Source of the DNA: an uncultured Fibrobacter sp.
GTDB taxonomy: Bacteria; Fibrobacterota; Fibrobacteria; Fibrobacterales; Fibrobacteraceae
Reading direction: 5' to 3'
DNA: 64,000 bases
Assembly: GCA_934700345.1 (NCBI GenBank)
Contig: CAKUXP010000002.1
Location: forward strand, 50,515 to 114,514
Part shown: positions 12,370-41,485 of the stretch, in pieces
Numbering within the stretch: the first letter of the stretch is position 1
How the letters are laid out: each line of letters opens with the position of its first letter
Program-made: the position numbers and the translations under genes
The notes under the pieces: model-generated
Database searches by the model: none
Seen by the model: the letters and a program-made list of their open reading frames with translations, nothing else
What the model was told of the DNA's origin: nothing

Positions 12370-13122
12370 TTACGAATCGATTTTCAGTCCCTGCCTGTTG
12401 GCTAGGGCTTTGGGTAGCGGTTCCGAGAGTGGATTGTTTACCAGGGAAAGCGACTTGAGTGCGGAACATGCGGAAAGTTCTTCCGGGATGGAATCCAGCT
12501 CGTTTTCGTCGAGGACCAGTTCACGAAGCTTTTGCAGCTTGCCGATAGAGGCGGGCAGGGCGACCAGGCTGTTCCCCGAAATCATCAGGACTTCGAGACT
12601 TTCGAGATCTCCGATGCTTGCGGGAATCGTCGAAAGGTCATTGTTGTCCAGGTAGAGTTTTTCGAGCCGCTTCATCTTGCCCAGGGTCTCGGGAATTTTC
12701 GAAAGCATGTTGTCGTGCAGGGAAAGTTTTTCCACGTTTTCCCAGCCTCCGACTTCATCGGGCAGTCCGAACAGCTGGTTCCGCGCGATATTTACCTTTT
12801 TCAGGTTCTTGAGCGCGCCGATCTGCTTCGGAAGCTCGGACAGGCTGTTGTAGCCTAGATACAGGTTTTCGAGTTTGGATAGTTCGGCAATCGTTTCGGG
12901 AAGTTCCATCAGGTCGTTTTCGCTGACGGAAAGGCTCTGGAGGTTCTTGAGACGCCCGATTTCGTCGGGAAGCTCCACGAGCAGGTTTTGGTCGAGGACG
13001 AGCTCCTCTAAATCTTCGAGTTCGAAGAGCTGTGACGGGAGAAGGCGCAGATGCATTCCCACAAGGTCCAGTTTCTTCGCTTTTTCGGCTTTCGCCTTGG
13101 CAATGACTTCGAGAAGATTCAT
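12370..13122 (-). CDS. Leucine-rich repeat protein (~10 LRRs), no signal peptide
   Basis: Tandem LxxLxLxxNxLxxLPxxIGxL repeats of ~23 aa throughout. Sits 4 nt upstream of the S41 peptidase gene on the same strand. Confidence 0.75.
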   Translation of the reverse strand: MNLLEVIAKAKAEKAKKLDLVGMHLRLLPSQLFELEDLEELVLDQNLLVELPDEIGRLKNLQSLSVSENDLMELPETIAELSKLENLYLGYNSLSELPKQIGALKNLKKVNIARNQLFGLPDEVGGWENVEKLSLHDNMLSKIPETLGKMKRLEKLYLDNNDLSTIPASIGDLESLEVLMISGNSLVALPASIGKLQKLRELVLDENELDSIPEELSACSALKSLSLVNNPLSEPLPKALANRQGLKIDS

Positions 13123-13364
13123 AGTATCGACTCCATTTTTTCAAATGATAGCATTTTTGTGCATTTTGCGGACTTTTTGCGGCAAAAGAGCGGATATGTG
13201 GCAAGTTTTTTTTGTTCCAAGCAGGAATATTCAAGAGGTTGCAGGGCTCAGTAATTCGTTGATAGTAGGGATAACTCAGAAGCCAGAAGTTGGGTGATGT
13301 GTGAGGAATTGGCTGCCGAGCGGACTTTCCATGTCCCGAGTCCCTCGTACCGCTTTTCGAAAAG

Positions 13365-13399
13365 CCTAGACGTCTGCGGACTAATCCCTAATTTCTCAT
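13365..13399 (-). repeat. Dispersed copy (reverse orientation) of the AGACGTCT-centred repeat family that is clustered at 20.7-21.6 kb
   Basis: cctagacgtctgcggactaatccctaatttctcat matches the reverse complement of atgagaaattagg...ttagtccgcggacgtctaag found at 20703-20752 and 21083-21132. Confidence 0.45.
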
Positions 13400-13606
13400 G
13401 TTCTCGACCGTCCGCTTCCTAATTTTAATTCTTCTCCGACAGGAAAATTCAAAAAGCGTGTTTTTGCATACAGAAATGCGTTTTAAATGGTTTGTAAAAA
13501 TTTTGAAACATCTTTTTTCGTGGAAAATCTCGAAAATAAGTGATATTTTAATTATCTATGTATAGTATAGTCAAAACTCCGGGTCCGGAGTTACTAGAGG
13601 ATTAAA

Positions 13607-15490
13607 ATGGAACTGACGAAAGCGCAAGAACGTAGACTTTCTTTTGTGGCCAGCTTGCTGAGCTTGAACCCGAACGATCCGACGGATCGCATCAAGGCTT
13701 TAAGGCATTTGAACCTGGATGAAGAGGGATGTTTTCACGGATTCCAGTATTCCCAGGGATTCCTTGAAATTTTCATTTTTATTGACGAGTCGACCCCGCT
13801 CGAAAAGGCCGTGCACAATCTGGCGCACGACCTGAAACAGCTCCAGATAGCCGTTTTCCGTACAAGTGATCCGGACAATCCGTTCTTTATGTCGCTCCGC
13901 GAAGAAGCCGATCCGTGGGATGTCATCAAGATGGACGCTTCGGACGCGGAGGAGGACGGCGACCAGCCGGCGAGTCGTCCTTACATGGAAACGCTTGAAA
14001 TCACGGTACTTAGGACGCTTTCTAGCCGTTACGTGACCGATGCGGAAATGGAACGCACGCTCAAGGATATGCGCCGCAAGTTGAACATCTGGAAGTCCGA
14101 TGTCCGGGCGAAGCTTGAAATCCGGGCGGAACATGACGATCTCGCAAAGGATTTTCGCAACAACGACGACAAGCTCGATATCGTAATGCAGGACGAACCT
14201 CTCCACATGACGAGCAAGAGTGGCGAGCTTTTTGTCGGGTTCTGCCCGATCCGCACCATCTTCGACTACCACCAGTCTTTGGGAAAGCGTCTCAAGACAA
14301 AGCATAATATGGCGATTGTTTCGAGCAACATCCGCACGTATCTCGGAAACCTGACCCATACGAACGCAGCCCTTATCGATGCGTTCCAGGAAATGGAAAA
14401 GGCGAATGACGCAAGCGATTTCCCGTTCCTCCACAACGGCATGACGCTCACGGGCGACGATCTGCGCCTGAAGGACCGCGACGGCAAGAAGGTCCTGCAA
14501 ATCGAACGTCCGAAGATTATCAACGGGGCGCAGTCGCTTTTCACCTACGAAAGCTATTTCAAGAAGAGCAAGAATCCGGTGAATCCGTTCGTGCTGATCA
14601 AGGTCGTGGTACCGTATCCCGAAGCGGACGCGTTTTTGCGACAGGTGACGATGGCAAACAACCGCCAGAACCCGGTGTTCAGTTACCATCTTCGCGCTGC
14701 GGACGATTTGCAGTTCTTCATCTGGCAGCGTTACCAGGAAGAAGGCTTTACCTACGTCTATAAGGACGGTGTCCGCCTGAAGGCTCGCACGCGCAAGCTC
14801 GAAGTCCGTATGCGGCCCGAACTCGCGAAGACTCTCTTCATGATGGACGGGAAAATTTCCGAAAGCCGTTCCTCGGACTGCATCTTTGACAAGGAAAGCC
14901 TTTACCAGCATTGCTTCGGCGCATTCCTGCGGGTCGCTCCGGACAAGGAACGCGACTTTGTACGTAAAACCATCGCCTATACGAAGGCGTGGCAGCTTCT
15001 CACCCGGCTTCCGATCAAGAACAGAAACGTCGTTCCGGGAAAAGGAGTTTCGATCGAAGCGAACGATGCAAACCCGCTCACGCGCATCACGTGGAACGGT
15101 CGCTTGGAGGACAAGTTCCTCTTCCGCAGCGCGGTCCGCGATGTCGTCGTAGCGATTGCGCTTCGCCATTGGCTCATCTACGGCAATCCGATCCAGGATT
15201 TTGAATATCTGGTCGTAAACGAGATTGATTTCAACAATTCGCTGCTCAAGTATGCGTCGCATATTTACGGCGACTACCTGAAATCGATTCTCGTAAACGA
15301 ATTCAAGGACAACAAGGATTACTACGACACGATTACCACAATCGACAAGGATTCCGGCGAAAATGTGGAACGTCGCCTGTGGAAAGGCTTCGGCACGACC
15401 GCTACCTATGACAAGATCATGCAGATGCTCGTGGCGAAGGACAAGTCCTGGGAAAAATGCCTAGGCGATATCGATGTCTTTTTGAAGTAA
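13607..15490 (+). CDS. Hypothetical 627-aa cytoplasmic protein with no confident family assignment
   Basis: Long ORF with GAGGAT 6 nt upstream of the ATG and natural amino-acid composition. The 520-aa antisense ORF at 13700..15262 is R/L/V-rich and looks like a shadow. Preceded by a ~480-bp AT-rich non-coding leader. Confidence 0.6.
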   Translation: MELTKAQERRLSFVASLLSLNPNDPTDRIKALRHLNLDEEGCFHGFQYSQGFLEIFIFIDESTPLEKAVHNLAHDLKQLQIAVFRTSDPDNPFFMSLREEADPWDVIKMDASDAEEDGDQPASRPYMETLEITVLRTLSSRYVTDAEMERTLKDMRRKLNIWKSDVRAKLEIRAEHDDLAKDFRNNDDKLDIVMQDEPLHMTSKSGELFVGFCPIRTIFDYHQSLGKRLKTKHNMAIVSSNIRTYLGNLTHTNAALIDAFQEMEKANDASDFPFLHNGMTLTGDDLRLKDRDGKKVLQIERPKIINGAQSLFTYESYFKKSKNPVNPFVLIKVVVPYPEADAFLRQVTMANNRQNPVFSYHLRAADDLQFFIWQRYQEEGFTYVYKDGVRLKARTRKLEVRMRPELAKTLFMMDGKISESRSSDCIFDKESLYQHCFGAFLRVAPDKERDFVRKTIAYTKAWQLLTRLPIKNRNVVPGKGVSIEANDANPLTRITWNGRLEDKFLFRSAVRDVVVAIALRHWLIYGNPIQDFEYLVVNEIDFNNSLLKYASHIYGDYLKSILVNEFKDNKDYYDTITTIDKDSGENVERRLWKGFGTTATYDKIMQMLVAKDKSWEKCLGDIDVFLK

Positions 15491-15547
15491 TTTTCGTCGT
15501 TCTCCTAAAAGCGGAAAAGGTTCGAAGCGATTCGGGCCTTTTTATAT

Positions 15548-16708
15548 TTGACGGTGATGGCAAATCTGCTTTTAGCGGTCATTTACGTTTCGTTTATAAG
15601 TTTGGGACTGCCCGATTCGCTGCTCGGTGCGGCGTGGCCGTCTATCTACCCGGAACTCGGGACGCCTATCTCGTCCGCGGGCATTTTGTCGATGATTATC
15701 GCGGTGGGGACGGTCGTGTCGTCGCTTGTGAGTGACCGGGTGACGCGCCTTTGGGGGGCGGGAAAGGTAAACGCTTTTAGCGTGCTTCTGACCGCGATTG
15801 CGCTTTTCGGCTTTTCGTCGAGCGGTTCGTTTGGGGAACTTTGTCTATGGGCGGTACCCTATGGTCTCGGGGCGGGAGCCGTCGATGCCGCTCTCAACAA
15901 CTACGTCGCGCTTCATTATAAGAGCCGTCACATGAGCTGGCTCCATTGCATGTGGGGAATCGGAGCGACCCTCGGTCCATACGCGATGGGATATGCGCTT
16001 TCACACGGGATGAATTGGACTGGCGGCTACCGGATTATTTCGGTTGTCCAGTTCGGGCTTGTCGCCGTCCTGTTCGCAAGTCTCCCTTTGTGGAAAAGGC
16101 GTTCGGATATGGCGAACGAGAAAAAGTCGGAACCGTTGCCGCTGCGGAAAGCTCTTGGAATGCCCGGAGCGAAAGAGATGATGCTCTGCTTCTTTTGTTA
16201 CAGCGCCGTGGAGCAGACGACGGGACTTTGGGCGGCGAGCTATCTGAACGGTGCCCGTGACTTTTCGGCAGAGGTTTCCGCAAGTCTTGCCGGGCTTTTC
16301 TTCGTGGGGATAACGGTCGGGAGAGCACTTTCGGGATTTGTCACGATGCGCCTTTCCGACGACCAAATGATTCGGCTCGGGCTTTGTATCATTCTCGTTG
16401 GAATTTTCCTCTTGTTCTTGCCGGTGAAGACGCTTTCCTTGGCGGGGCTTGTCGCCATCGGGCTTGGCTGTGCGCCGGTTTATCCCTGTATCATCCATTC
16501 GACGCCGGAGCGTTTCGGGGCGGAAAATTCGCAGGCTTTTGTGGGAATCCAGATGGCGAGCGCCTATGTCGGGACGACCTTGATGCCTCCGCTATTCGGA
16601 CTTATCGCAAGAAATTTGGGCATTTCTCTTTTGCCTGTATATTTAATCCTGTTTCTGTCACTTATGCTCTCGATGCATTTGAAATTGACGAAAATCACCC
16701 GGAAATAA
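15548..16708 (+). CDS. MFS transporter
   Basis: About 12 predicted transmembrane helices, a charged central loop, and an N-terminal GLPDSLLGAAWP-type MFS signature. Confidence 0.8.
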   Translation: MTVMANLLLAVIYVSFISLGLPDSLLGAAWPSIYPELGTPISSAGILSMIIAVGTVVSSLVSDRVTRLWGAGKVNAFSVLLTAIALFGFSSSGSFGELCLWAVPYGLGAGAVDAALNNYVALHYKSRHMSWLHCMWGIGATLGPYAMGYALSHGMNWTGGYRIISVVQFGLVAVLFASLPLWKRRSDMANEKKSEPLPLRKALGMPGAKEMMLCFFCYSAVEQTTGLWAASYLNGARDFSAEVSASLAGLFFVGITVGRALSGFVTMRLSDDQMIRLGLCIILVGIFLLFLPVKTLSLAGLVAIGLGCAPVYPCIIHSTPERFGAENSQAFVGIQMASAYVGTTLMPPLFGLIARNLGISLLPVYLILFLSLMLSMHLKLTKITRK

Positions 16709-20596: not shown

Positions 20597-20624
20597 ATAA
20601 GTTGGCCTACCCGGCCTGGGGCAA

Positions 20625-20670
20625 GGTAGGGGGACCTTTCCAAGTTGCGAAGGCCAAGGTCCCCCTTCCT
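20625..20670 (+). terminator. Strong GC-rich hairpin downstream of the third FISUMP gene (terminator-like, no T-run)
   Basis: aggtagggggacc-N20-ggtcccccttcct pairs at 12 of 13 positions with a G5/C5 core. Confidence 0.3.
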
Positions 20671-20947
20671 TGCAACCACCCCCAGGACCACGCTTATCAT
20701 CGAATGAGAAATTAGGAGTGAGGAATGAGGAGTTAGTCCGCGGACGTCTAAGTTTAGGGACTAGGGAACAGGGATTAGGGAATAGTCCGCGGACGTCTAA
20801 GTTTAGTGGACAGTGATTAGTGGGCAGAGACGCAGACGTCTAGGTTTTTGGGATGAAGGAGTAGGGATTAGTTTGCGGACGTCTAAGCTTTTGGGAAGCG
20901 GTACGAGGAACACGGGATTCAGAGCTTAGTTGAGAGTGCTTAGAATT
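20670..20947 (+). repeat. Direct repeat copy 1 (~278 bp) containing three GCGGACGTCTAAG / GCAGACGTCTAGG palindromic-core sub-motifs and an internal 50-bp sub-duplication
   Basis: ttgcaaccacccccaggaccacgcttatcatcgaatgagaaattaggagtgaggaatgaggagttagtccgcggacgtctaag ... cagagcttagttgagagtgcttagaatt is repeated at 21050-21295. Confidence 0.85.
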
Positions 20948-21049
20948 GGCGGTTAGATTCGGAACGAGAAATTTGAAGCGAACAGACTGTTATTAACAAC
21001 GGTCGATGATTAGCTAAGTTCTCTATACGAAGCTCTATGTTCCGATAAC

Positions 21050-21295
21050 TTGCAACAACCCCCAAGGCCACGCTTATCATCGAATGAGAAATTAGGAGTG
21101 AGGAATGAGGAGTTAGTCCGCGGACGTCTAAGTTTAGTGGACAGTGATTAGTGGGCAGTGAGCAGAGACGCAGACGTCTAGGTTTTTGGGATGAAGGAGT
21201 AGGGATTAGTTTGCGGACGTCTAAGCTTTTGGGAAGCGGTACGAGGAACACGGGATTCAGAGCTTAGTTGAGAGTGCTTAGAATTTAGAACAGCG
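21050..21295 (+). repeat. Direct repeat copy 2 (~246 bp), >90% identical to copy 1 apart from a 50-bp deletion and a 7-bp insertion
   Basis: Read directly from the sequence; the two copies lie 380 bp apart. Confidence 0.85.
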
Positions 21296-21610
21296 GGATT
21301 TAAATTGCTGAAAAACAGAATCTAGTCGTCTGCAAATTTCAGCACTAAGCTCTCAGCTCTGACAACGGCTCGCTCGACAGTCTAATCCCTAATCCCTTCT
21401 CCCTGTTCCCTAGCTGCTCGCTAGTCACTGATCACTGATTTCTAACTTCTGTCAACTACCAACTAAGCTCTAACCACTGATTCCTGACAACTTACAGTTC
21501 GCTAGACTGTCAATTCCTCATTGCTCATTGCTCATTGCTAATTCCTCCCTAATCCCTATTCCCTTCCCCCTAATCCTTGATAGCGGTTCGCTGAACAGCC
21601 CGCATCCTAA
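21296..21610 (+). repeat. Degenerate, mostly inverted units of the same repeat family (TTCGCT-A/C-GAC-A/T-GTC-T/A-AAT-T/C-CC...), low-complexity
   Basis: ctcgctcgacagtctaatccctaatccc, ttcgctagactgtcaattcctcattgctcattgctcattgc and ttcgctgaacagc resemble reverse complements of ggattaggg, gaggaatgagg and ttagtccgcggac from the forward copies. Confidence 0.4.
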
Positions 21611-21730
21611 AACAAACAGAGCAAAAATTATTACTTTCTATCGGCTTTTGTGGGCGGAAAGGCGCTTTTTCTGTATTTTGGAAAACGTTTTTTGCCCTGC
21701 ATGTATGATGACGTCCGGATTGAAACGAAA

Positions 21731-24700
21731 ATGAAAAGGCTTTTAGCCGTTTTTGCCCTGTTGGTGTCGCTGTCTCCTGCCGAGCCGGCGGATTCCGCTG
21801 TGTCCGAAAATGCGGTGAGTTCGGGCAAAAGTTCCGTCCAGTATATTCCGCTCCCGCCGAGCGTGACTCCTCTCTCGGATTTGGTCCCGAAGAGCGGTAT
21901 TGGCCAGAGCGACCGGCTGATGAATCCCCCGAAGAGCGAACGGTTCGAGCACAACATCGACTTTGAAAACCGCGAAATGGAAGTCTCCAAAAAGTATGTG
22001 AACCCGATAAGCCGCGATACGGCGGAAATGTGGTCTGCGACTTACCCCGAGATTGCCTCTTACGTTTCGGACATGTACGACATCGGATTCAACCGCCTGT
22101 GGCTGAACTCCTTTGCCGGTCAAAAGGACGGTGGCTATGCCGCCCCGGAAGGCGCAACGCTCTACGACATTGACATTCCCATCAACATGCCCTCGTGGAT
22201 GAAGGACTTTGGATTAGACAAGCCGAAGCTCATGCTGCAAGGGACGATGGATATCCGGCTTTCGGGCCGTGGAGAAAAGGACGATGCTCCGGGCAGCACC
22301 AAGGACAACCTGTTCCCTAGCCCGACACTTTCCTATGACCCGAGCTTTATGGTCAAGGGAAAAATCGGTCCGTATATCACCGTGGAAGTGAACAACGTGG
22401 AAAGCGGTCTCGGTGCGAAAAACCAGATTCGGGTCGTGTACGAGGAATCCTACAAGGATGAATTCGAGGATTACATCTTGCAGCGCATCGAGGCCGGTAC
22501 GACGTCGCTTGCGCTTCCCGGAACGGAACTCACGGGATATTCCGAAAATCACAAGGGACTGTTCGGCATCAAGGCCGAATGGAAGCTCGGAGACTGGTGG
22601 CTTACGACTATCGCTTCGCAGGACGGAGGAAGCCAGGAAAAGTACACGATCAACGCGAGCACAAGCACGACGGAATTCCAGATCCAGGACAAGCAGTTCG
22701 TCGCTTACCGCTACTACTTTTTAAATCAGGAAGCGCGTAGCAATTATGTCAGCGCGGGACTTGCCGGACGCAGCACGTCTCCGTATGCGGCGACGAACCT
22801 GAAGCTTTACCGCCGTGCACCGACCAACACGACGACGAATGTCGTGGAAAATATCACGGCGGTCTATGTGACGCCTTCGGGCGCGCGCGTCGAAAAGAAA
22901 ATCGACCGCCTGGTCCCGATGTCGGCAAACGACTATTCCTATGACAGCAAAACGGGCATCGTGAAAGTTCTCGGGGCGAACAAGAATACGCTTATCGCGG
23001 CGAGCTTCTCGGACGATGGGACGGGACGCTCCGGGACTACCGTGAACAACAATTCGAGGGTAGTCCTTATCCAGTGGGACGCGACGCTTTCGGAACTCGA
23101 AGGCATCGACAAGCTGATGCTTCGGAACGTCTATTCGGTCGGAATTTCGGACGAGAGTGCTTCGAGCTTCGTGCTCCGCTTAAAGAACAAGTCGGGCGTT
23201 TCGAGTTCCTACCTGAAGACTCTCGGACTGGTCGATTCGACGACGGGAACCGTTCTGACCGGCGACGCGACGATTTTTAAAAAGGACGCTTCGGGAACTT
23301 ACACGGGCGAAATGTGGTTGCCCTGCCGCCCGCTTTCGTGGTATTCCGGTGCGAATTCTTCGGCTCGAGCGCGGGAAAACTGCCTGGAGCCTTTCCGCAA
23401 CGTGGACTCTTCCGCGGCGATGGCGAATCTTTACTCGCTTCCCGTTTCGAACATCGCGTCTAAGTACACGAGCCGCTTCTACTTTGAAAGTGTCGGCAAG
23501 AGGCGCAACTCGGTCATCAGCGTGCGCGATCCGAATTCGAGCTATTCCGTCAGCGCTGGCAGCTGCATGGATATTTCGGAAGGCTCGGAAAAGTTGAAGG
23601 CCGGCTCGACGGTTCTCACCCGCGGCGTGGATTACGATGTGAACTACGAACTCGGGCAAATCGAACTTTTGAGCGAGACCGCTCTCGATCCGAACAAGGA
23701 AATCTCGGTGGAATTCGAGTGCGAACCCCTGTTCGAAATCGACAACAAGGTGCTGCTCGGCGCTCGCGCGGAACTTCCCCTTTCGCGGTATGGATTTGGA
23801 AACGGGTCGCTCTTCGGCATTACGGCTCTCTACAAGAGCCAGAGCACGACCGCTTCGACGCCGACGCTCGGGAGCGAACCTTATTCGAGCTTTCTCTGGG
23901 GCATGAACCTGCGCCTGCAGGATACGACGAAGTGGATGACGGATGTGGTGAACTGGATTCCCGGAATCGAAACGAAGGCCGCTTCGAACTGGCGCTTCGA
24001 AACGGAATTTGCGAGCAGCTATCACGATGCGAATACGAGCAGCGGCAAGACTGCGCTTCTCGAAGATTTTGAAAGCAGCGAATCGGGGCTTGTCTATCCG
24101 CTGTCTAGACTTTCCTGGTACCAGGCCTCGCCTCCGGGGGGCGTCGATACGGATCCGAGCACCTACATCGAAAGCCAGGATTACAAGCACAAGGGCGAAT
24201 TCATCTGGCACAGCAACAACACGGTTCTCTACAAGCACATCTACCCGACTGTAGGAAACAGCGATGTCGATAACCAGCGTTTAACGGTCCTGAAGCTCAC
24301 GCTCCGCCCGAACGACAACCTGATGGGGAACAGCTGGGGCGGTATCATGCGCCCGAATTCAAGTTATTACCAGGACCTGAGTGACATGAAGTATATCGAA
24401 GTCGTCGCGCGGGGAAATGTCGGAAGCATCTATTTGGATTTGGGGCTTGTGAGCGAAGACCTTTCCATCAACGGCGATGCGCCGAACGGGCAATATGACG
24501 GCGAAAACGATCTGGGAACGACGACGGCTTTGCACGATAAGGGTCTCGACGGACTTTCCGGGTCGGAAGAACATCTGACCGTCTGGGACTGCCGCATGAA
24601 CGGCTGCGTGAGCACCATCAAGACGAGTGCGAATTCCGATGCGACGAATACGGACATTGCGCGTGACAACTTCGACGACAGCCTCGACGATGCCAGCGAT

Positions 24701-27700
24701 CCGCCGGTAGCCATCAACGGGACGGAAGGCAACTCGGGCGAACGCGCTTATGATACGGAAGATATCAACAGGAACGGCTCACTCGACACGGACATCGGGT
24801 TTGTCCGCTACCGGATAGACCTTTCCGACAACGATGACGCCCATTTTGAAACGCTCAAGAACGGCTGGCGCAAATGGAAAATTCCGCTCGACCAGTTTGA
24901 CACGGTCGTTTCCAAAAACGGCGAAAGTTACCAGACGATTCTGGCCCAGGCGCAGTTTTCGAGGCTTTGGATGGGAAAGCTCAATAACGGCGTTGCCGAG
25001 GCGAAGGTGCAGATAGTGAAGCTTGGCGTGATGGGAAATTCCTGGGAAGCTTCAAACGTTTCGAGCAAGTTCGTCACCTCTTCGACGGGCGGTTCGCAGA
25101 CGGCAATCGTTGACGGCAGCGAAGTGGATATTTCGGGTTCGACGACGACATCCGACACGACCTACCTGAACGTTTCGACGATCAACAACCGCGAAAATTC
25201 GGGGACGTATTACAAAAGCCCGAACACCAAGACGGAACGCGACTCGGAGACGAACGCCGCGCTGAAGGAAACGGCCCTTGTCCTGACATATAAGAACCTT
25301 TCGCCGGGACAGTCGGTCGGTGCAACGCGGACTTTCGATTCGGACGAAAAGGACTTGACGAAGTACAAGACGCTCAAGATGGAAATCCACTATACGACCG
25401 ATGCGACGCGGACTCCGGTGCGATTCGCTTTCCAGTTCGGGGAAGGATCGCTGGAAGGTTCGACGGATTATTACGAGTGGAGCTTTAGGCCCGTGAAGAT
25501 CAACTGCTCGGCAGCGGAGCGGGCTGCGGATTGTCACGAACGGAACTGGCTCGCAAACGCGTTCTCCGAAAAGCTCTCCGCGTTTTCCGACCTGAAGAAG
25601 GGGCGCCGTCCACCGTTCCTCGAAGCGGTCGTCGATTCTATCGGCGGCGAAAGGGAAGAAGTCTTGAAGCTTGTCGGAAACCCTTCGACGACTTCGGTGG
25701 ACTGGATTCGCTTTGTGATTATCGCGGACGAGGACGCTTCGCCTGCGGATCTCGAAGGCGAATTCTGGATTGACGATTTGCGGCTTTCGGGAATGGATAA
25801 CGACTGGGGCTATGCATTCCGCACTTCGGGCCAGGCGAACTTTGCGGATTTCCTTTCGGTTTCCGCATCGGCGCGTTACCAGGACGGAAACTTTGCGACG
25901 CTTTCGACAAGCGGATCGTCGCCCAAGCCGACGCTTTCCGAAGCGGAATCCAAGCTGGACATCGCCGCGGATGCGAGCGTGAACTGGAACAAGTTCTTTG
26001 CCGACGAACAGGGATTCCACATGCCGATGAGCATCGGCTACAGCAGCACGACGGAGCGTCCCTACCTGAAGCCGACGGACGATTTGGAACTTTCGCATGA
26101 TAACCTGGGCGATTTTGCAAAGGATGTTTGGGACGGCAAGTTGACCGTTGAAAACGCCGACGAGGAACAGAAGATTCGCGACGACGCGGAGTCTCGCGGA
26201 TACCAGTCGTTCAGCCGTACGCGCCGCTTCAGCTTTAGTTACAGCAAGGATTACAAGGAAGAATCAAGCCCTGTCAAGGAAGTCCTTTCGCAGATTTTCC
26301 TGGAGCGTCCGGCGTGGAGCTACAGCTATACGGAGACCGAGTCCCGATCGACGACATCCGCGGATTCCTCCTATTCGTATCACACGATCATCGAATACAG
26401 CCTCGGAACCTTTAACCGATTCAACTACAAGCCTTTTAGCTTCTTGAAAAATTCGTCATGGGCGAAGAGCTTTTCCGATGCGTCGTTTGAACCGTGGCCG
26501 CAGACGATAGACCTCACCCTTTTCGACCTGAGCTATATCCGCTATGTGAACCAGGAGCGCGACCCGGACTTTACGGAACCGCAGACGGCAAAGACCGTCA
26601 CTTACACGGTGGATCTTTCGCACAAGGCAAATCTTCGTTGGAATATCTTCCCCTTTCTTTCGACAAGCTACAGCCTGAACATCTCTCGCGACATGTACGG
26701 TGGCGGTGACCAGGAAGATTTTGCAAAAGAGAATTTCTGGACGTTCAAGAACGGCGGATTGTTTGCCGCGGACGATATCTTCGACTTTGACCATACGGAC
26801 AGGAAAGTCTATGTCTCGCCGGACAGCGTCGTCATCATACCCTACGATACGGTCGCCGTGGTGAATGCAAAAGGCGATACAGCTTTAATCGACATGGACG
26901 ATCCGAGTACCTACCGGATTTTATACGACAGCACGGTCTATTACAAGGTTGATAGCGTCGGGCATCGCGAATACGGACGCGCTTACGGTATTCTCAAGAA
27001 TGAACGTAGCCGCAGCCAGCAGTTCAAGACGACGTTTAGTCCCGCAGTGATCCCCTTCCTTCCGATGTCATTCTCGTTTACGTCTTCGTTCCGGCAGCAA
27101 AAGACGATTCCCGACGAGTATGACCTGTACGATCCGACGATGATCGAGAAGAACTACTGGACGATTTCCCAGACGAACCGCTTCGAGTTTACGCCGTCTT
27201 TCCGCATTGTAAATTTCTTGAAACTTTTTGGCGACAAGAACGCGGCTGCGGGATTCTTCGAAAAGCTCAAGTGGCGTGACGTGAAGGCTGCGTGGACGGT
27301 CGATATCTCCACGGTGGGCGAGAACTTCACCCTGTCGCAACTCTATGAAGAACAGGGCGTGACACCGTTCCAGTATTACCTTTACGGCCTAGGCATCGGA
27401 AACGGCTACCGGAACCGCGGAATTTGGAACATCGTTTCGGGCGACATGGGACTTGACCATCGGAACGATTACACGCGTTTTGCGCAATACCGGAACGGAC
27501 ATGTCGATACGCTCGTTTACCAGGGGAACTTCACCCATTCGGTAAACCGGACGCTTAACCTCTCGACAGGATTCACGCTTCCGTTCTGGAATATAGGCAT
27601 TGTAACGGATATGCAGTGGAAACAGGACTTTAGCCAGTCGCGCGAATATCCGCTCTATACGGATTCGACGATTGTCTGGCCGAAGTGGGGCGTCGGCGTA

Positions 27701-28507
27701 ACCGTACCGAATTTCTCGCAGCGCGTCGGATTTTTGAACTCTTTCCGCAGTGTAAGCACGACGCATCGGGTCGATTATACGCATACGCGGGTTTCTAGGC
27801 CTTTCCAGAGCGCGGAAGACAGTTGGACAACGACATGGAATTTCAATCCGCTGATCCGCATCAGCTTTCTCACCCAGCAGAACATCCGTATCGAGGACAA
27901 TACCTATCTCAAACTGGAATTTACCGATCGGCGTCCCAAGCAGGAAGTCATCTCGCAGACGAACTGGCCGTCGAATGTCGAGGACCTTTCGGATACGACA
28001 AAGTATTTCTACACGCCTTGGATGCCGACCGCGCTTTACAAGGATTTCGGCTACAATGTCGGAAACGACTTGACGATTTCCTACCCGCTCAAGACGAAGC
28101 GCGGATTCCAGTTCTGGAAATGGTACTTCAAACTGAAAAACGATATCGATCTTCGCCTTACCGCCGGCTATGAATACACGAAGACGATTCGGGAATCCTA
28201 CGAGCCGGTTTCCGGCTACAACATGAACGAGAAAAACGAGGCGGCGGGCGATGTCTATCGGCGTTGGAACATCAACGGCAGTGATTACACGGTCTATTTT
28301 CCGAAGCTCGAAAAAACGGAGCGGACAGTTCCTTCGCGGGTTCACGAATGGTTTGTCCGCCCGAGCGCCGGTTACCAGTTCAACAAGATGGCGAGCATGA
28401 GCGCCTATATCGAATACCGTCAAATTCACGAAAAGCTCGACGACGAAACCGCTCACACGGAGCAGATCCTTTCGTTTGAAATCGCGCTTCTCCTGAGATT
28501 CAACTAG
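21731..28507 (+). CDS. Giant (~2260 aa) secreted outer-membrane protein, SprA/Sov-like (candidate type IX secretion translocon)
   Basis: Signal peptide MKRLLAVFALLVSLSPAEP at ATG 21731. The in-frame track ORF starts at 21650 (GTG). Size, abundant alternating aromatic and polar beta-strand-like segments, and S/T-rich loops are consistent with the SprA family (TIGR04189-like). The assignment is by size and composition, not by a named motif. Confidence 0.45.
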   Translation: MKRLLAVFALLVSLSPAEPADSAVSENAVSSGKSSVQYIPLPPSVTPLSDLVPKSGIGQSDRLMNPPKSERFEHNIDFENREMEVSKKYVNPISRDTAEMWSATYPEIASYVSDMYDIGFNRLWLNSFAGQKDGGYAAPEGATLYDIDIPINMPSWMKDFGLDKPKLMLQGTMDIRLSGRGEKDDAPGSTKDNLFPSPTLSYDPSFMVKGKIGPYITVEVNNVESGLGAKNQIRVVYEESYKDEFEDYILQRIEAGTTSLALPGTELTGYSENHKGLFGIKAEWKLGDWWLTTIASQDGGSQEKYTINASTSTTEFQIQDKQFVAYRYYFLNQEARSNYVSAGLAGRSTSPYAATNLKLYRRAPTNTTTNVVENITAVYVTPSGARVEKKIDRLVPMSANDYSYDSKTGIVKVLGANKNTLIAASFSDDGTGRSGTTVNNNSRVVLIQWDATLSELEGIDKLMLRNVYSVGISDESASSFVLRLKNKSGVSSSYLKTLGLVDSTTGTVLTGDATIFKKDASGTYTGEMWLPCRPLSWYSGANSSARARENCLEPFRNVDSSAAMANLYSLPVSNIASKYTSRFYFESVGKRRNSVISVRDPNSSYSVSAGSCMDISEGSEKLKAGSTVLTRGVDYDVNYELGQIELLSETALDPNKEISVEFECEPLFEIDNKVLLGARAELPLSRYGFGNGSLFGITALYKSQSTTASTPTLGSEPYSSFLWGMNLRLQDTTKWMTDVVNWIPGIETKAASNWRFETEFASSYHDANTSSGKTALLEDFESSESGLVYPLSRLSWYQASPPGGVDTDPSTYIESQDYKHKGEFIWHSNNTVLYKHIYPTVGNSDVDNQRLTVLKLTLRPNDNLMGNSWGGIMRPNSSYYQDLSDMKYIEVVARGNVGSIYLDLGLVSEDLSINGDAPNGQYDGENDLGTTTALHDKGLDGLSGSEEHLTVWDCRMNGCVSTIKTSANSDATNTDIARDNFDDSLDDASDPPVAINGTEGNSGERAYDTEDINRNGSLDTDIGFVRYRIDLSDNDDAHFETLKNGWRKWKIPLDQFDTVVSKNGESYQTILAQAQFSRLWMGKLNNGVAEAKVQIVKLGVMGNSWEASNVSSKFVTSSTGGSQTAIVDGSEVDISGSTTTSDTTYLNVSTINNRENSGTYYKSPNTKTERDSETNAALKETALVLTYKNLSPGQSVGATRTFDSDEKDLTKYKTLKMEIHYTTDATRTPVRFAFQFGEGSLEGSTDYYEWSFRPVKINCSAAERAADCHERNWLANAFSEKLSAFSDLKKGRRPPFLEAVVDSIGGEREEVLKLVGNPSTTSVDWIRFVIIADEDASPADLEGEFWIDDLRLSGMDNDWGYAFRTSGQANFADFLSVSASARYQDGNFATLSTSGSSPKPTLSEAESKLDIAADASVNWNKFFADEQGFHMPMSIGYSSTTERPYLKPTDDLELSHDNLGDFAKDVWDGKLTVENADEEQKIRDDAESRGYQSFSRTRRFSFSYSKDYKEESSPVKEVLSQIFLERPAWSYSYTETESRSTTSADSSYSYHTIIEYSLGTFNRFNYKPFSFLKNSSWAKSFSDASFEPWPQTIDLTLFDLSYIRYVNQERDPDFTEPQTAKTVTYTVDLSHKANLRWNIFPFLSTSYSLNISRDMYGGGDQEDFAKENFWTFKNGGLFAADDIFDFDHTDRKVYVSPDSVVIIPYDTVAVVNAKGDTALIDMDDPSTYRILYDSTVYYKVDSVGHREYGRAYGILKNERSRSQQFKTTFSPAVIPFLPMSFSFTSSFRQQKTIPDEYDLYDPTMIEKNYWTISQTNRFEFTPSFRIVNFLKLFGDKNAAAGFFEKLKWRDVKAAWTVDISTVGENFTLSQLYEEQGVTPFQYYLYGLGIGNGYRNRGIWNIVSGDMGLDHRNDYTRFAQYRNGHVDTLVYQGNFTHSVNRTLNLSTGFTLPFWNIGIVTDMQWKQDFSQSREYPLYTDSTIVWPKWGVGVTVPNFSQRVGFLNSFRSVSTTHRVDYTHTRVSRPFQSAEDSWTTTWNFNPLIRISFLTQQNIRIEDNTYLKLEFTDRRPKQEVISQTNWPSNVEDLSDTTKYFYTPWMPTALYKDFGYNVGNDLTISYPLKTKRGFQFWKWYFKLKNDIDLRLTAGYEYTKTIRESYEPVSGYNMNEKNEAAGDVYRRWNINGSDYTVYFPKLEKTERTVPSRVHEWFVRPSAGYQFNKMASMSAYIEYRQIHEKLDDETAHTEQILSFEIALLLRFN

Positions 28508-33748: not shown

Positions 33749-35170
33749 ATGTTGGAAAAACTCTTTAAAATCACCGAGAACCGTTCTAGCGTTCGAACCG
33801 AAATCCTGGCGGGTCTCACCACGTTCATGACGATGGCGTATATCCTTGCGGTAAACCCCAGCATCCTTTCCGCTTCGGGAATGCCCAAGGGCGGCGTTTT
33901 TATCGCGACGGCTCTCGCGGCGGCTCTTGGCTCGACGCTGATGGCGCTCTTTTCGAACTATCCCTTTGTCCTCGCTCCAGGTCTCGGGCTGAACGCGTTT
34001 TTCTCCTACACGGTTGTCATCACGATGGGATACAGCTGGCAATTTGCCCTGCTTGCCGTCTTTGTCGAAGGCATTGTCTTTCTTGCGCTTTCGCTCACCT
34101 CTGTCCGGGAAAGCCTTTTCAACGCGATTCCGCTTTCGCTCAAGTCCGCCGTGGCGGTGGGCATCGGGCTTTTCATCACGTTCATCGCGTTTCAAGGGGC
34201 AAAGATTGTCGTCAATTCCGATGCGACGCTCGTAACGGTCATCAACTTCCACCGGGCGGATTTTCACACGACGGGAATCTGGGCGCTTCTCGCGATCATC
34301 GGGACGATTGTCACGGGATTTCTCGTTTCGAAAAAAATTCGGGCGGGAATTTTGCTCGGCATGTTCATCACGTGGTTTCTAGGCGTTCTCGCGGAACTTG
34401 TAGGAATCTACGTGCCGGATGCTTCCAAAGGATTTTTCTCCGTGGTCCCGCATTTTGGAAACTACTTCAGCGATTTGGGCAAGACTTTTTCGGAATTCGG
34501 GTCGATAGCCTTTGCCATTTTCCATCCGTCGTCTTGGACGCATTCGGTAAACGGCGCCGTGGATTTTTCGGGCTGGACCCTCGTCAAATCCTTGGACTTC
34601 TTTGTCGTGATGTTCGCCTTTTTCTTTGTCGATTTGTTTGATACGCTCGGAACGCTCATCGGCGTTTCGCTCAAAGGCGGCTTCCTGGATGCGAACGGAA
34701 AGCTTCCTCGGATTTCGGGCGCCCTCTATGCGGATTCCATCGCGACTTCGGTTGGAGCCGTTCTCGGAACTTCGACCACGACGACTTTTGTCGAAAGCGC
34801 AGCGGGCGTCGCCGCCGGGGGAAAGACCGGGTTCACGTCCATCTTCGCCGCGTTCCTGTTCATTGTATCAATTGTTTTCGCTCCGGTATTCTTGGCGATT
34901 CCCGGGTTTGCGACGGCTCCGGCCCTGGTCATTGTCGGCTTTTACATGATAAGCTCCGTATCGAAAATCGAGTTCAAGGATTATTCCAAGGCGATTCCCG
35001 CGTTCCTGTGCATTGTCGCGATGCCTCTAACCTACTCGATTTCGGACGGGATCATGTTCGGCGTAATCTCCTACACGGTGCTGAACTTTGTCCTCGGAAA
35101 GCGGAAGGATATCCATTGGATCATGTACATTCTGACCGTGCTCTTCGTGCTGAAATACGCTTTGATGTAG
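33749..35170 (+). CDS. NCS2 family nucleobase permease (AzgA/PbuG-like adenine/guanine/hypoxanthine permease)
   Basis: ILAGLTTFMTMAYILAVNPSIL and an ~14-TM architecture typical of the AzgA subfamily. Adjacent to apt. Confidence 0.8.
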   Translation: MLEKLFKITENRSSVRTEILAGLTTFMTMAYILAVNPSILSASGMPKGGVFIATALAAALGSTLMALFSNYPFVLAPGLGLNAFFSYTVVITMGYSWQFALLAVFVEGIVFLALSLTSVRESLFNAIPLSLKSAVAVGIGLFITFIAFQGAKIVVNSDATLVTVINFHRADFHTTGIWALLAIIGTIVTGFLVSKKIRAGILLGMFITWFLGVLAELVGIYVPDASKGFFSVVPHFGNYFSDLGKTFSEFGSIAFAIFHPSSWTHSVNGAVDFSGWTLVKSLDFFVVMFAFFFVDLFDTLGTLIGVSLKGGFLDANGKLPRISGALYADSIATSVGAVLGTSTTTTFVESAAGVAAGGKTGFTSIFAAFLFIVSIVFAPVFLAIPGFATAPALVIVGFYMISSVSKIEFKDYSKAIPAFLCIVAMPLTYSISDGIMFGVISYTVLNFVLGKRKDIHWIMYILTVLFVLKYALM

Positions 35171-35190
35171 CGAATCGTTTTTTGGAAAAG

Positions 35191-35218
35191 GACCGTCTTG
35201 CTGGCGGTCTTTTTTTTT
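35191..35218 (+). terminator. Rho-independent terminator after the permease gene
   Basis: GACCGtcttgctggCGGTC followed by a 9-T run. Confidence 0.6.
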
Positions 35219-35240
35219 GTGTGCACAATGCTTTGAAAAA

Positions 35241-35354
35241 TCGTTTCGACTTGTTATATTTCGATTCTCATAAAGAGGTTTTTAAATCAATGCATTTACG
35301 CGTCTTTTTCCTGTTGCTTCTTGTGTCCCTGGGGAACGTTCTTGCCGTGCAGTT
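35241..35354 (+). repeat. Cassette X copy 1: 5'UTR + RBS + signal peptide (MHLRVFFLLLLVSLGNVLAVQ), 114 bp
   Basis: 112 of 114 positions are identical to 36731-36844. The two copies are fused to completely different downstream coding sequence. Confidence 0.9.
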
Positions 35355-36683: not shown

Positions 36684-36730
36684 AAAAAAACGAAAACTAG
36701 TCTTTTTTTTGTAAACAAAGTTTTGGAAAT

Positions 36731-36844
36731 TCGTTTCGGCTTATTATATTTCGATTCTCATAAAGAGGTTTTTAAATCAATGCATTTACGCGTCTTTTTC
36801 CTGTTGCTTCTTGTGTCCCTGGGGAACGTTCTTGCCGTGCAGTT
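36731..36844 (+). repeat. Cassette X copy 2
   Basis: See copy 1. The two copies are 1490 bp apart. Confidence 0.9.
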
Positions 36845-39797: not shown

Positions 39798-39799
39798 CG

Positions 39800-41476: not shown

Positions 41477-41485
41477 GTAAAAACC

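What the first reader, a model, noticed from the sequence alone, without database searches (positions are those of the whole stretch)
13123..15490. Orphan 627-aa cytoplasmic protein behind a 480-bp AT-rich leader with no recognisable family
I cannot place this large ORF in a known family from sequence, and it has no operon partners. It is preceded by the longest AT-rich non-coding stretch in the window, which also carries a copy of the dispersed repeat.

Local features (...FPFLHNGMTLTGDDLRLKD...KIINGAQSLFTYESY..., an acidic N-terminal third, W-rich C-terminal third) are faintly reminiscent of large standalone nucleic-acid-targeting or abortive-infection-type proteins (AIPR / DGQHR-like xNGxQx loops). 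I cannot substantiate that. Single large orphan genes in AT-rich contexts are a common form for defence or stress effectors.
Basis: inference. Interest (0 to 1): 0.55.

Follow-up and report, generated by a model that had tools for sequence, protein, structure and literature searches.

The report
Core-gene AIPR (AbiU-like) protein of Fibrobacteraceae
The "orphan" 627-aa gene belongs to the known AIPR/AbiU phage-resistance protein family, but in Fibrobacter and its relatives it behaves like a strongly conserved, vertically inherited core gene and not like a mobile defence gene.

Summary
The ORF (13607-15490, +) and its 484-bp AT-rich leader are real. The claim of "no recognisable family" is wrong. 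Pfam AIPR scores 67.8 bits (cut-off 25) and PADLOC AbiU gives E=9e-20. A Fibrobacterota-only profile aligns with ordinary ~590-aa AIPR proteins over almost the full length (E=1.8e-34). The model shows weak similarity to two folds: FokI-type nuclease domains, and ParB/DUF262 domains as in BrxU and SspE. All residues invariant in the family's AIPR core are kept. The family's N-terminal D-Q-K positions read H44 and non-basic residues, and these are themselves invariant.

The gene does not behave like a defence gene. At least 118 species genomes carry it. It lies next to the same LRR gene in 57 of 61 independently anchored loci. It co-diverges with its neighbours at one third of their rate. Its dN/dS is 0.01-0.03, and its codon bias is strong and native. 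It appears on no phage or plasmid, and no defence genes lie nearby in the window. The AT-rich leader is a conserved divergent promoter spacer, lengthened here by a repeat insertion.

My best reading is an AIPR protein fixed, and probably exapted, in Fibrobacteraceae. Its biochemical function is untested. Interest is modest.

The parts
13123..13606 (.). Divergent intergenic spacer (484 bp, GC 0.397) between the LRR gene (-) and the AIPR gene (+). It has a conserved LRR-proximal end (~13123-13200), a variable middle (~13200-13490) and a conserved AIPR-proximal end.
   Evidence: the same spacer has a median of 266 bp and GC 0.24-0.33 in 80 related loci; alignment of the closest spacers.
13334..13396 (-). 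One copy of a dispersed intergenic repeat (core TAGTCCGCRGACGTCTA at 13367-13383) inserted in the variable middle of the spacer. It accounts for much of the extra length compared with relatives.
   Evidence: 6 copies in the window against 0.02 expected; among the 80 spacers compared, only this one has the exact repeat core, while L008 and L018 carry several diverged repeat copies at the same place.
13492..13606 (+). AIPR-proximal promoter / 5'-UTR region, nearly invariant among relatives whose protein is at least 93% identical.
13502..13518 (+). Conserved upstream element TTTGAAAC-N4-TTTTT (family consensus tTTTGAAACTATTTTTA..Gtg.aAA), 52-112 nt upstream of the ATG in orthologs. It is a candidate promoter or operator. 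Its function is inferred.
   Evidence: found in 50 distinct upstream regions; a single occurrence in the 64-kb window.
13576..13591 (+). 5'-UTR stem-loop (ACUCCG/CGGAGU, 6 bp) just upstream of the Shine-Dalgarno sequence. Other lineages have a hairpin of different sequence at the same place.
   Evidence: 68 distinct UTRs, mean z -1.8, 62% with z < -1.5.
13596..13601 (+). Shine-Dalgarno sequence AGAGGA (family consensus GAGGA), 5 nt before the ATG.
13607..15490 (+). Coding sequence of the 627-aa AIPR-family protein, including the stop codon.
13607..14311 (+). N-terminal domain (residues 1-235), predicted alpha/beta. The family's D...QxK positions are occupied by H44 (13736-13738) and by non-basic residues, with an invariant D60-E61 pair at 13784-13789. 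Assignment of the FokI-type (PD-(D/E)xK) fold to this domain is inferred.
13919..13987 (+). Clade-specific acidic loop (residues 105-127), with low model confidence. It is the only relaxed segment of the protein.
   Evidence: pLDDT < 50 for residues 109-126; absent from ordinary AIPR proteins; conservation 0.75 against 0.90-0.96 elsewhere.
14312..14866 (+). AIPR core (residues 236-420; the Pfam match covers residues 240-387) with the invariant motifs SNIRxYLG, FPFxHNGMTL, PKIINGAQS, VTMANNRQNPV and LRAxD. It is proposed to be ParB/Srx-like.
14867..15487 (+). C-terminal, mainly helical domain (residues 421-627), shared with ordinary AIPR proteins. It has two clade-specific, conserved beta-hairpin insertions (residues ~471-498 and ~568-592).
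15514..15543 (+). Terminator-like hairpin (13 bp) followed by a U-rich tail, between the AIPR stop codon and the MFS gene.
   Evidence: The consensus scan did not report it.
12370..13122 (-). Divergently transcribed 250-aa cytoplasmic leucine-rich-repeat protein. It is the conserved neighbour of the AIPR gene throughout Fibrobacteraceae. A functional link is not shown.
   Evidence: Pfam LRR_8 etc.. AIPR adjacent in 57 of 61 LRR-anchored loci.
13700..15262 (-). 520-aa antisense ORF. It is an in-phase shadow of the AIPR gene caused by avoidance of TTA, CTA and TCA codons, and is not a gene.
   Evidence: dS is not reduced.

Best explanation
The ORF is a monocistronic gene for an AIPR-family (Pfam PF10592, AbiU1-like) protein with three modules:
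1. An N-terminal alpha/beta domain of FokI-type restriction-endonuclease fold. The family's usual D...QxK positions are replaced by H44 and non-basic residues, next to an invariant D60-E61 pair.
2. The AIPR core, related to the ParB/Srx superfamily, with every family-invariant residue intact.
3. A helical C-terminal domain.

Ordinary AIPR/AbiU genes are mobile and are often linked to restriction-modification or recombinase genes. This clade is instead a fixed, vertically inherited, very strongly conserved chromosomal gene of Fibrobacteraceae, with more distant orthologs elsewhere in Fibrobacterota.

The most likely mode of action, which is inferred and not shown, runs through the intact AIPR core. 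I propose that the protein binds nucleic acid or nucleotides, that the rewired N-terminal domain and the clade-specific insertions provide new and conserved interactions, and that it now serves a conserved cellular nucleic-acid function rather than classical suicidal abortive infection.

Shown: family membership, domain layout, conservation pattern, synteny and vertical descent. Inferred: the fold assignment of each domain, loss of canonical nuclease chemistry, and the cellular role.
For: Family membership:
- Pfam AIPR 67.8 bits against a cut-off of 25. PADLOC AbiU E=9e-20.
- A Fibrobacterota-only profile against 45 ordinary AIPR proteins gives probability 99.9%, E=1.8e-34 over 498 columns spanning residues 29-619.
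- The best match in BFVD is itself an 'AIPR protein', E=3e-8.

Folds:
- This matches the published description of AbiU1/AIPR as a ParB-superfamily nuclease domain fused to other nuclease domains (PMC3632139), and the AlphaFold view of AbiUi as FokI-like (PMC13064643).

Core intact, N-terminal site rewired but maintained:
- All core motif residues, and H44, D60 and E61, are invariant in 98 distinct sequences. The N-terminal domain is nearly as conserved as the core, 0.94 against 0.96.
- No Lys or Arg occurs in residues 52-62 under either alignment.

Fixed and vertical:
- At least 118 species-representative genomes carry it.
- An AIPR gene is present in 57 of 61 LRR-anchored metagenome loci.
- Distance matrices co-vary with the LRR gene (r 0.84) and the M23 gene (r 0.78, Mantel p 0.001), at about one third of their rate.
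- dN/dS is 0.010-0.027, against 0.07-0.14 for the neighbours.
- Nc is 42.4, the second-strongest codon bias of 29 genes.
- There is a conserved, gene-specific upstream element.

Not mobile or defence-like in context:
- No phage hit, and plasmids match only the core at about 25% identity.
- The neighbours in the window are peptidases, an LRR protein, an MFS transporter and lipoproteins.
- Ordinary AIPR genes lie among recombinases, IS elements and a toxin gene on plasmids.
Against: - No experiment bears on this clade, and the AIPR family itself has no established biochemical mechanism.
- The profile comparison with a DUF262 protein was not significant (E 0.018, probability 2.6%).
- An invariant His plus an Asp-Glu pair could still form a metal site, so nuclease activity is not excluded. 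BamHI-type enzymes also lack the Lys (my own knowledge).
- Loss of the D-Q-K triad is common in the family, in 35-49% of close relatives, so it does not by itself indicate a change of function.
- Strong conservation does not exclude an immune role.
- In many Fibrobacter genomes the DNA just downstream is variable and holds HipA-type toxin and ATPase genes. The LRR-AIPR spacer is an insertion hotspot.
- Four of 61 LRR-anchored loci show no AIPR gene within 3.8-4.5 kb. These could be true absences.
Confidence: 0.5

Rival explanations
1. It is a functional anti-phage protein of the AbiU type that has become fixed in the lineage. The protein senses infection and then cleaves or degrades nucleic acid or nucleotides through the AIPR core, or through a non-canonical H/D/E metal site in the N-terminal domain. 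It was kept in all Fibrobacteraceae because their phages impose constant selection.
For: - Family membership and the PADLOC AbiU hit.
- AbiUi alone confers modest phage resistance and delays phage transcription in Lactococcus (Dai 2001, as reviewed in PMC13064643).
- The structural neighbours BrxU, SspE and DndI are all defence proteins.
- The region downstream is variable and rich in toxin and ATPase genes in many Fibrobacter genomes.
- Fibrobacter is reported to be rich in defence systems (PMC11834463).
[quoted passage not shown] Its identity with this gene is unverified.
Against: - dN/dS of 0.01-0.03 applies over the whole length, including any putative sensor surface, with no diversifying region apart from a short acidic loop.
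- The gene shows near-universal presence and co-divergence with its neighbours.
- No relatives of this clade occur on phages or plasmids.
- No defence genes lie nearby in this window.
- The canonical nuclease triad is absent.
Confidence: 0.3
2. The LRR gene and the AIPR gene form a two-gene module that shares a divergent promoter region. The cytoplasmic LRR protein would act as the recognition subunit, in the manner of an NLR, and the AIPR protein as the effector or signal-processing subunit.
For: - The divergent LRR-AIPR arrangement is kept across Fibrobacteraceae, in 57 of 61 anchored loci and nearly all of 80 genome loci.
- The two proteins' distances co-vary with r 0.84.
- The LRR protein has no signal peptide and consists only of LRR repeats.
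Against: - The S41 and M23 peptidase genes are equally syntenic, so the adjacency may reflect only a conserved gene block. LRR and M23 co-vary just as well, r 0.875.
- In the more distant orthologs (45-53% identity) no LRR gene is adjacent.
- Several lineages tolerate insertions of 1.5-4 kb between the two genes.
- The LRR gene evolves about three times faster.
Confidence: 0.12
3. It is a horizontally acquired, stand-alone defence or stress effector sitting in foreign AT-rich DNA, typical of a defence island.
For: - The leader is AT-rich and carries a mobile-looking repeat.
- The family is usually mobile.
Against: - The gene has GC of about 0.54 and GC3 of 0.69, and is among the most codon-adapted genes of the window.
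- The AT-rich spacer is ancestral and conserved.
- The gene is vertically inherited.
- No defence genes flank it here.
Confidence: 0.04

Closest known systems
AIPR family (Pfam PF10592; 'AbiU1/AIPR/COG1479' of Makarova et al.)
   Same: - It passes the Pfam threshold.
- It has the same three-part, roughly 600-aa architecture over nearly the full length.
- It has the same invariant core motifs: NIR, HNG, NGAQ[ST], NNRQNPV and LRAxD.
   Different: - It is only 21-22% identical to the nearest ordinary members over the full-length alignment (27-29% in the best local segment).
- It has clade-specific insertions: an acidic loop at 105-127, 8 aa before SNIR, and hairpins at ~471-498 and ~568-592.
- The N-terminal D-Q-K positions are replaced.
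- It is vertically inherited, near-universal and under very strong constraint within one bacterial family, whereas ordinary members are patchy, mobile and linked to R-M or recombinase genes.
AbiUi (AbiU1) of Lactococcus lactis plasmid pND001
   Same: - It hits the PADLOC AbiU model (E=9e-20) across the end of the N-terminal region and the core.
- It is a single gene of similar size.
- Its predicted nuclease-like N-terminal domain resembles FokI.
   Different: - The match covers only profile positions 188-373 of 537.
- AbiUi is plasmid-borne and gives modest phage resistance by delaying phage transcription. Nothing comparable has been tested here.
- The genomic behaviour is the opposite: chromosomal, fixed and conserved.
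ParB/Srx-superfamily defence proteins with a DUF262/DGQHR domain (GmrSD/BrxU, SspE, DndB, DndI)
   Same: - The strand-Gly-helix motif LLNGAQ[TS] lines up with V(L/I)DGQQR.
- The literature places AIPR and the N-terminal part of DndB in one ParB-like family.
   Different: - The Arg of DGQ(H/Q)R is absent (NGAQS).
- There is no DUF1524/HNH nuclease domain.
- The order of nuclease-like and ParB-like modules is reversed.
- The profile comparison was not significant.
- There is no link to phosphorothioation or BREX genes.
FokI / N.BspD6I-type PD-(D/E)xK nuclease domains
   Different: The catalytic signature is not present in this clade (H44 ... I-D-E, with no Lys), and no DNA-recognition domains of FokI type are present.

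Membership tests
AIPR family (PF10592) | Score at or above the curated Pfam gathering threshold | tested here: met
   67.8 bits against 25, E=1.8e-18, residues 240-387 = profile positions 3-150 of 308. All 51 relatives carry the precomputed PF10592 tag.
AIPR family (PF10592) | Family-invariant core residues (N..R of NIR; F.F.HNG; P..LNG.Q; T...N.Q of TxNNRQNPV; LRAxD) | tested here: met
   The invariant columns of 45 ordinary members are all present here and are invariant in 98 Fibrobacteraceae sequences.
AIPR family (PF10592) | Shared full-length architecture (N-terminal alpha/beta domain + core + helical C-terminal domain, ~590-630 aa) | tested here: met
   hhalign of the Fibrobacterota-only profile A4 against the ordinary-member profile A2 gives probability 99.9%, E=1.8e-34, 498 columns, residues 29-619. 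The profile search finds ~590-aa proteins aligned over profile positions 5-617.
AIPR family (PF10592) | Typical genomic behaviour: patchy, mobile, linked to restriction-modification or other defence genes | tested here: not met
   The gene has vertical descent, is near-universal, and has no defence neighbours in the window. Compare the plasmid-borne members, and the literature. This is a habit of the family, not a formal criterion for membership.
AIPR family (PF10592) | Anti-phage (abortive infection) phenotype | not testable with these tools
   This needs phage challenge of a knockout or of a heterologous host.
AbiU (PADLOC PDLC02357; Lactococcus AbiUi) | Match to the AbiU profile | tested here: met
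   E=9e-20, 69.3 bits, but the match is partial: residues 174-381 = profile positions 188-373 of 537.
AbiU (PADLOC PDLC02357; Lactococcus AbiUi) | Delays phage transcription and lowers the efficiency of plaquing | not testable with these tools
   The phenotype is known only for the lactococcal protein.
PD-(D/E)xK nucleases (FokI-type catalytic domain) | Restriction-endonuclease-like alpha/beta fold | tested here: inconclusive
   [not shown]
PD-(D/E)xK nucleases (FokI-type catalytic domain) | Catalytic D ... (D/E/Q)xK signature | tested here: not met
   The family's D-Q-K maps to H44/I59/E61 in the MAFFT alignment or H44/I57/I59 in hhalign. There is no Lys or Arg in residues 52-62. Ordinary relatives keep D-Q-K in 51-65% of cases.
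ParB/Srx superfamily (DUF262 / DGQHR / DndB-like) | ParB/Srx-like fold of the core | tested here: inconclusive
   [not shown]
ParB/Srx superfamily (DUF262 / DGQHR / DndB-like) | DGQ(H/Q)R phosphate-binding motif | tested here: not met
   The equivalent segment reads NGAQS (family: NGAQT) and lacks the Arg. Alignment to VLDGQQRITS of a GmrSD-type protein gave only E 0.018, probability 2.6%.
HEPN (claimed for the N-terminus of AIPR proteins in PMC3506569) | Conserved Rx4-6H motif in a helical domain | tested here: not met
   [not shown]

The most novel reading that the evidence does not exclude
An abortive-infection-family protein (AIPR/AbiU) has been domesticated in Fibrobacteraceae into a conserved, possibly essential, cellular nucleic-acid-handling protein. 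Its nuclease-like domain would have been converted into a regulatory or interaction module, and it may work together with the divergently encoded cytoplasmic LRR protein. That would be the first documented exaptation of this family. It would also give a stable, single-copy model for working out what the AIPR core does biochemically.
Probability: 0.3. Interest if true: 0.6.

Novelty: new variant of a known kind. Interest (0 to 1): 0.4.

Why it matters
1. The AIPR/AbiU family is widespread (3,614 clusters at 50% identity) and is routinely counted as a defence system. Yet no solved structure is detectable and the reviewed literature gives no established mechanism. A clade that is single-copy, stably inherited and highly constrained in a cultivable genus (Fibrobacter) is a convenient system for genetic and biochemical study.

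2. Automated defence annotation tools such as PADLOC would label this core gene 'AbiU' in every Fibrobacter genome. That may inflate defence-system counts for a lineage already reported as unusually defence-rich. This is a practical caveat for surveys.

3. If the gene really has been exapted, it adds a case to the recurring theme of ParB/Srx-type conflict proteins being recruited to housekeeping roles.

If instead it is simply a fixed defence gene, the finding is ordinary.

Tried and rejected
- **RNA element in the leader.** Rfam found nothing in 12800-15800 at E up to 1, and nothing in the whole window at gathering scores. So the leader shows no known riboswitch or sRNA.
- **NCBIfam.** No meaningful hit.
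- **Solved relatives by sequence.** None with the single protein or with a 45-member family profile.
- **Foldseek against PDB.** Nothing significant.
- **AFDB50 fold search.** The library was not available.
- **Sigma-70 promoter and terminator consensus scan.** It gave no convincing promoter for the gene and missed the downstream hairpin. The hairpin was found by folding.
- **Antisense 520-aa ORF as an overlapping gene.** Rejected. The frame is the in-phase shadow, and the gene has the lowest TTA/CTA/TCA frequency of 29 genes. The frame stays open in most orthologs for that reason. Synonymous divergence is not reduced.
- **First hhalign between A1 and A2.** Discarded as circular, because A1 contained two A2 members. 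It was repeated with A4.
- **Profile comparison with a DUF262 protein.** Not significant.
- **HEPN N-terminal domain.** Not supported.
- **R-M or defence genes elsewhere in the window.** None among the proteins scanned.
- **Taxonomy look-ups for the Fibromonas names.** They failed, so placement of the 52-54% clade rests on the sources' own labels.
- **The upstream element as an ECF-type or Bacteroidetes-type promoter.** Considered, but spacing and the -10 region are ambiguous. It is left as a candidate promoter or operator.
Full report
**1. The observation**

The window holds a 627-aa ORF at 13607..15490 on the + strand. Upstream, a 250-aa gene on the minus strand ends at 13122. So 13123-13606 is a 484-bp divergent intergenic spacer. 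Its GC is 0.397 against 0.509 for the window, and the lowest 300-nt value is 0.367.

The spacer carries one reverse-strand copy of a dispersed repeat. The core TAGTCCGCAGACGTCTA is at 13367-13383. Five further copies cluster at 20734-21223, and 0.02 matches are expected by chance.

The composition remarks hold. The N-terminal third has pI 4.8, and five of the eight Trp residues lie in the C-terminal third. There is no hydrophobic segment.

Two details do not hold. The spacer is the longest AT-rich intergenic stretch, but a longer non-coding region exists (20597-21649, 1053 bp, GC 0.47). The most AT-rich DNA of the window lies inside genes near 40 kb.

The gene is probably monocistronic. Its upstream neighbour is divergent. 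A 13-bp hairpin with a U-rich tail (15514-15543) lies between its stop codon and the MFS transporter gene 57 bp downstream.

**2. The protein belongs to a known family**

The statement that the protein fits no family is wrong.
- Pfam AIPR (PF10592) matches residues 240-387 with 67.8 bits, against a curated cut-off of 25.
- The PADLOC AbiU model matches residues 174-381 with E=9e-20.
- NCBI names close relatives 'AIPR family protein'.

An alignment of Fibrobacterota sequences only (A4) was compared with 45 ordinary ~590-aa AIPR proteins (A2). It gives probability 99.9% and E=1.8e-34 over 498 columns, covering residues 29-619. An earlier comparison was circular and is disregarded. All three parts of the protein are therefore homologous to the family, not only the Pfam core.

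The family-invariant core residues are all present. They lie in the motifs NIR, F.F.HNG, P..LNG.Q, T..NNRQNPV and LRAxD.

**3. Anatomy of the protein**

An AlphaFold2 model built on 25 sequences has mean pLDDT 77. Foldseek against PDB found nothing. No solved relative is detectable by sequence.

- They are followed by ParB/DUF262 defence proteins: BrxU/GmrSD 5.9, SspE 5.4 and DndI 5.3.
- ParB nucleases follow at 4.6.

The best viral model is itself an AIPR protein (E=3e-8).

This agrees with the literature. [quoted passage not shown] An AlphaFold model of lactococcal AbiUi was likened to FokI (PMC13064643).

The tool does not show which residues align. The assignment of the FokI-like fold to residues 1-235 and the ParB-like fold to the core is my inference. 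It rests on domain sizes and on the sequence signatures described next. An older claim of an N-terminal HEPN domain (PMC3506569) finds no support here.

**4. The N-terminal site**

Ordinary family members have G[IV]D[GA]F ... LYL[FY]QFKWS in two consecutive strands. This is a D...QxK signature of the PD-(D/E)xK type.

In the Fibrobacterota clade the same strands read GCFHGF ... LEIFIFIDES.
- The Asp aligns with H44 in both the MAFFT and hhalign alignments.
- The Q and K align with I59 and E61 in MAFFT, or with I57 and I59 in hhalign.
- No Lys or Arg occurs anywhere in residues 52-62.

So the canonical chemistry is absent, whichever alignment register is used.

The domain is not decaying. H44, D60 and E61 are invariant in 98 distinct Fibrobacteraceae sequences. 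The N-terminal domain is almost as conserved as the core, 0.94 against 0.96. Only a clade-specific acidic loop (residues 105-127, low pLDDT) is relaxed.

Two cautions apply. A His plus an Asp-Glu pair could still bind a metal. Loss of the D-Q-K triad is also frequent in the family at large: it is intact in only 23 of 45 and 53 of 82 close relatives. The constant module of the family is the AIPR core.

The clade also has an 8-residue insertion before SNIR. It has two conserved beta-hairpin insertions in the C-terminal domain.

**5. Evolutionary behaviour**

This is where the gene departs from what the family name suggests.

Distribution. A scan of one genome per species found 118 genomes encoding a relative. 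The 80 loci kept are essentially all Fibrobacter, Hallerella or Fibrobacteraceae, at 79-100% identity and constant length. They include F. intestinalis ATCC 43854 and many F. succinogenes MAGs. The window itself matches a Hallerella MAG at 100%. More distant orthologs (45-54%) come from sources labelled Fibromonas, Fibromonadaceae or Fibrobacterales.

Synteny. In nearly all Fibrobacteraceae loci the same LRR gene lies immediately upstream and divergent, preceded by the S41 and M23 peptidase genes. The downstream side varies. It holds an MFS transporter in the window's lineage, and HipA-type toxin, ATPase and NYN genes in others.

Independent test. I anchored a metagenome scan on the LRR gene instead of the AIPR gene. 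Of 61 loci with at least 900 nt on the relevant side, 57 carry the AIPR gene. The other four show insertions or unrelated genes within 3.8-4.5 kb. Other loci have insertions of 1.5-4 kb at this spot, so those four may not be true absences.

Co-divergence. All-against-all protein distances of AIPR co-vary with those of LRR (r 0.84) and M23 (r 0.78, Mantel p 0.001). This is nearly as tight as LRR with M23 (r 0.875). AIPR evolves at about one third of their rate: mean p-distance 0.09 against 0.245 and 0.291.

Selection. In unsaturated comparisons dN/dS is 0.010-0.027 for AIPR, against 0.07-0.14 for its neighbours.

Composition. The gene has the second-strongest codon bias of 29 window genes (Nc 42.4, GC3 0.69). 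It has the lowest frequency of the rare codons TTA, CTA and TCA. That explains the 520-aa antisense 'ORF' at 13700-15262 as a shadow.

Mobility. No phage record matches. Plasmid AIPR genes match only the core at about 25% identity. Those plasmid genes sit among recombinases, IS elements and a toxin gene.

Neighbourhood. None of the window genes I scanned, either flanking the AIPR gene or in the low-GC stretch at 29-44 kb, belongs to a restriction or defence family.

**6. The leader**

The spacer between the LRR and AIPR genes is AT-rich in all relatives (median 266 bp, GC 0.24-0.33). So it is an ancestral divergent promoter region and not a mark of foreign DNA.

Among the closest relatives it has three parts.
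- A conserved LRR-proximal end.
- A variable middle, where repeat copies have inserted. There is one copy here and several in L008 and L018.
- A nearly invariant 115-bp AIPR-proximal end (13492-13606).

Across the family an element with consensus tTTTGAAACTATTTTTA..Gtg.aAA lies 52-112 nt before the ATG. In the window it occurs only once, at 13502-13518. It is followed by a hairpin whose sequence differs between lineages but which is usually present (68 distinct UTRs, mean z -1.8). In the window the hairpin is at 13576-13591. A strong Shine-Dalgarno sequence comes next.

I regard the element as a candidate promoter or operator. Its type could not be settled.

**7. Interpretation**

Three things are shown:
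- membership of the AIPR family;
- a three-module layout shared with the family;
- an evolutionary regime of fixation, vertical descent and very strong constraint.

Three things are inferred:
- the fold of each module;
- loss of canonical nuclease activity;
- what the protein does.

My preferred reading is that an AIPR protein became fixed early in this lineage and was probably recruited to a conserved cellular role involving nucleic acids or nucleotides. It would act through the intact ParB-like core. The rewired N-terminal domain and the new insertions would provide conserved interactions. The uniform, housekeeping-like constraint over the whole 627 residues is what tips me this way. An infection sensor under arms-race pressure would be expected to show at least one diversifying surface.

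The main rival is a fixed but genuine AbiU-type defence protein. I cannot exclude it, and I give it about 0.3. A two-gene LRR-AIPR module is possible but weakly supported.

**8. Verdict**

The finding is real, but 'no family' mis-describes it. It is a divergent clade of a known family, so I rate it a new variant of a known kind.

It is of modest interest as an apparently domesticated member of an abortive-infection family whose mechanism is unknown. It is also a practical warning: defence-annotation pipelines will score this core gene as 'AbiU' in every Fibrobacter genome.

Noticed in passing
window 20597-21649: A 1053-bp non-coding region upstream of a 2285-aa ORF (21650-28507) is packed with repeats. 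There are five copies of a 61-nt unit containing TAGTCCGCGGACGTCTAAG, duplicated blocks of 110-143 nt about 340-380 bp apart, and G-rich (AGGGATTAGGGA) and C-rich (TCCCTAATCCCT) tracts that form long-range inverted repeats. There is no Rfam match. It is the same repeat family as the copy in the AIPR leader.
   Followed up: partly
L015-L017, L044, L047, L050, L061, L062, L103, L108, L116, L119, L127, L139 (the spacer equivalent to window 13123-13606): The LRR-AIPR spacer is an insertion hotspot. Different lineages carry there a DUF4423 + Fib_succ_major gene pair (3.35 kb), a metallo-beta-lactamase-fold gene (F. intestinalis), or a WYL/WCX regulator with a DUF3990 protein.
   Followed up: partly
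L009-L012, L014, L018 (record titles): Genome records titled Alistipes onderdonkii, Senegalimassilia, Sodaliphilus, Eggerthellaceae, Methanomethylophilaceae and Oscillospiraceae (all 'H076xx-L1_cleanbin' bins) carry this AIPR gene at 94-99% identity. They also carry the syntenic Fibrobacteraceae neighbours. These contigs look mislabelled or mis-binned.
   Followed up: no
window 13700-15262 (-), and also 46577-47974 (-) and 53993-55855 (-): Very long antisense ORFs shadow several genes. They arise because TTA, CTA and TCA codons are rare (13.8 per 1000 in the window). The AIPR gene is the extreme case at 3.2 per 1000, and the frame stays open for at least 400 codons in 76 of 98 orthologs.
   Followed up: yes
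window 35008-44281: A patch of low-GC genes (GC3 0.33-0.37 for 35008-36366 and 39800-41476; 300-nt GC down to 0.30 at 40151-40450). It includes three FGE-sulfatase-domain paralogs and a CBM_4_9 protein, and is flanked by 148-nt and 184-nt direct repeats (35213/36703 and 36504/42875). It may have been acquired or duplicated recently.
   Followed up: partly
window 13502-13518, and orthologous positions in about 50 distinct loci: A gene-specific conserved upstream element TTTGAAAC-N4-TTTTT is followed by a lineage-variable 5'-UTR hairpin. Its type (primary-sigma, ECF-like or operator) is unresolved.
   Followed up: partly
L167-L169 (P0050 loci), positions 100-2166 of L167: The closest non-Fibrobacterota AIPR protein lies 35 bp downstream of a 688-aa gene with a faint Helicase_C hit on the same strand. 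This suggests that ordinary members of this subfamily work with a helicase-like partner, which the Fibrobacterota clade lacks.
   Followed up: no
L005 13192-15443: In a Fibromonas-type contig, an EcoRI-type methylase gene and a GmrSD_N/HNH gene lie about 3 kb downstream of the AIPR ortholog, separated from it by polyprenyl synthase and isocitrate dehydrogenase genes. It is the only defence-like neighbourhood seen for the distant orthologs.
   Followed up: no
literature: PMC8406330 and PMC11834463: [quoted passage not shown] Fibrobacter is reported to have one of the highest defence-system counts in the rumen, a figure that may include this core gene if it was scored as AbiU.
   Followed up: partly
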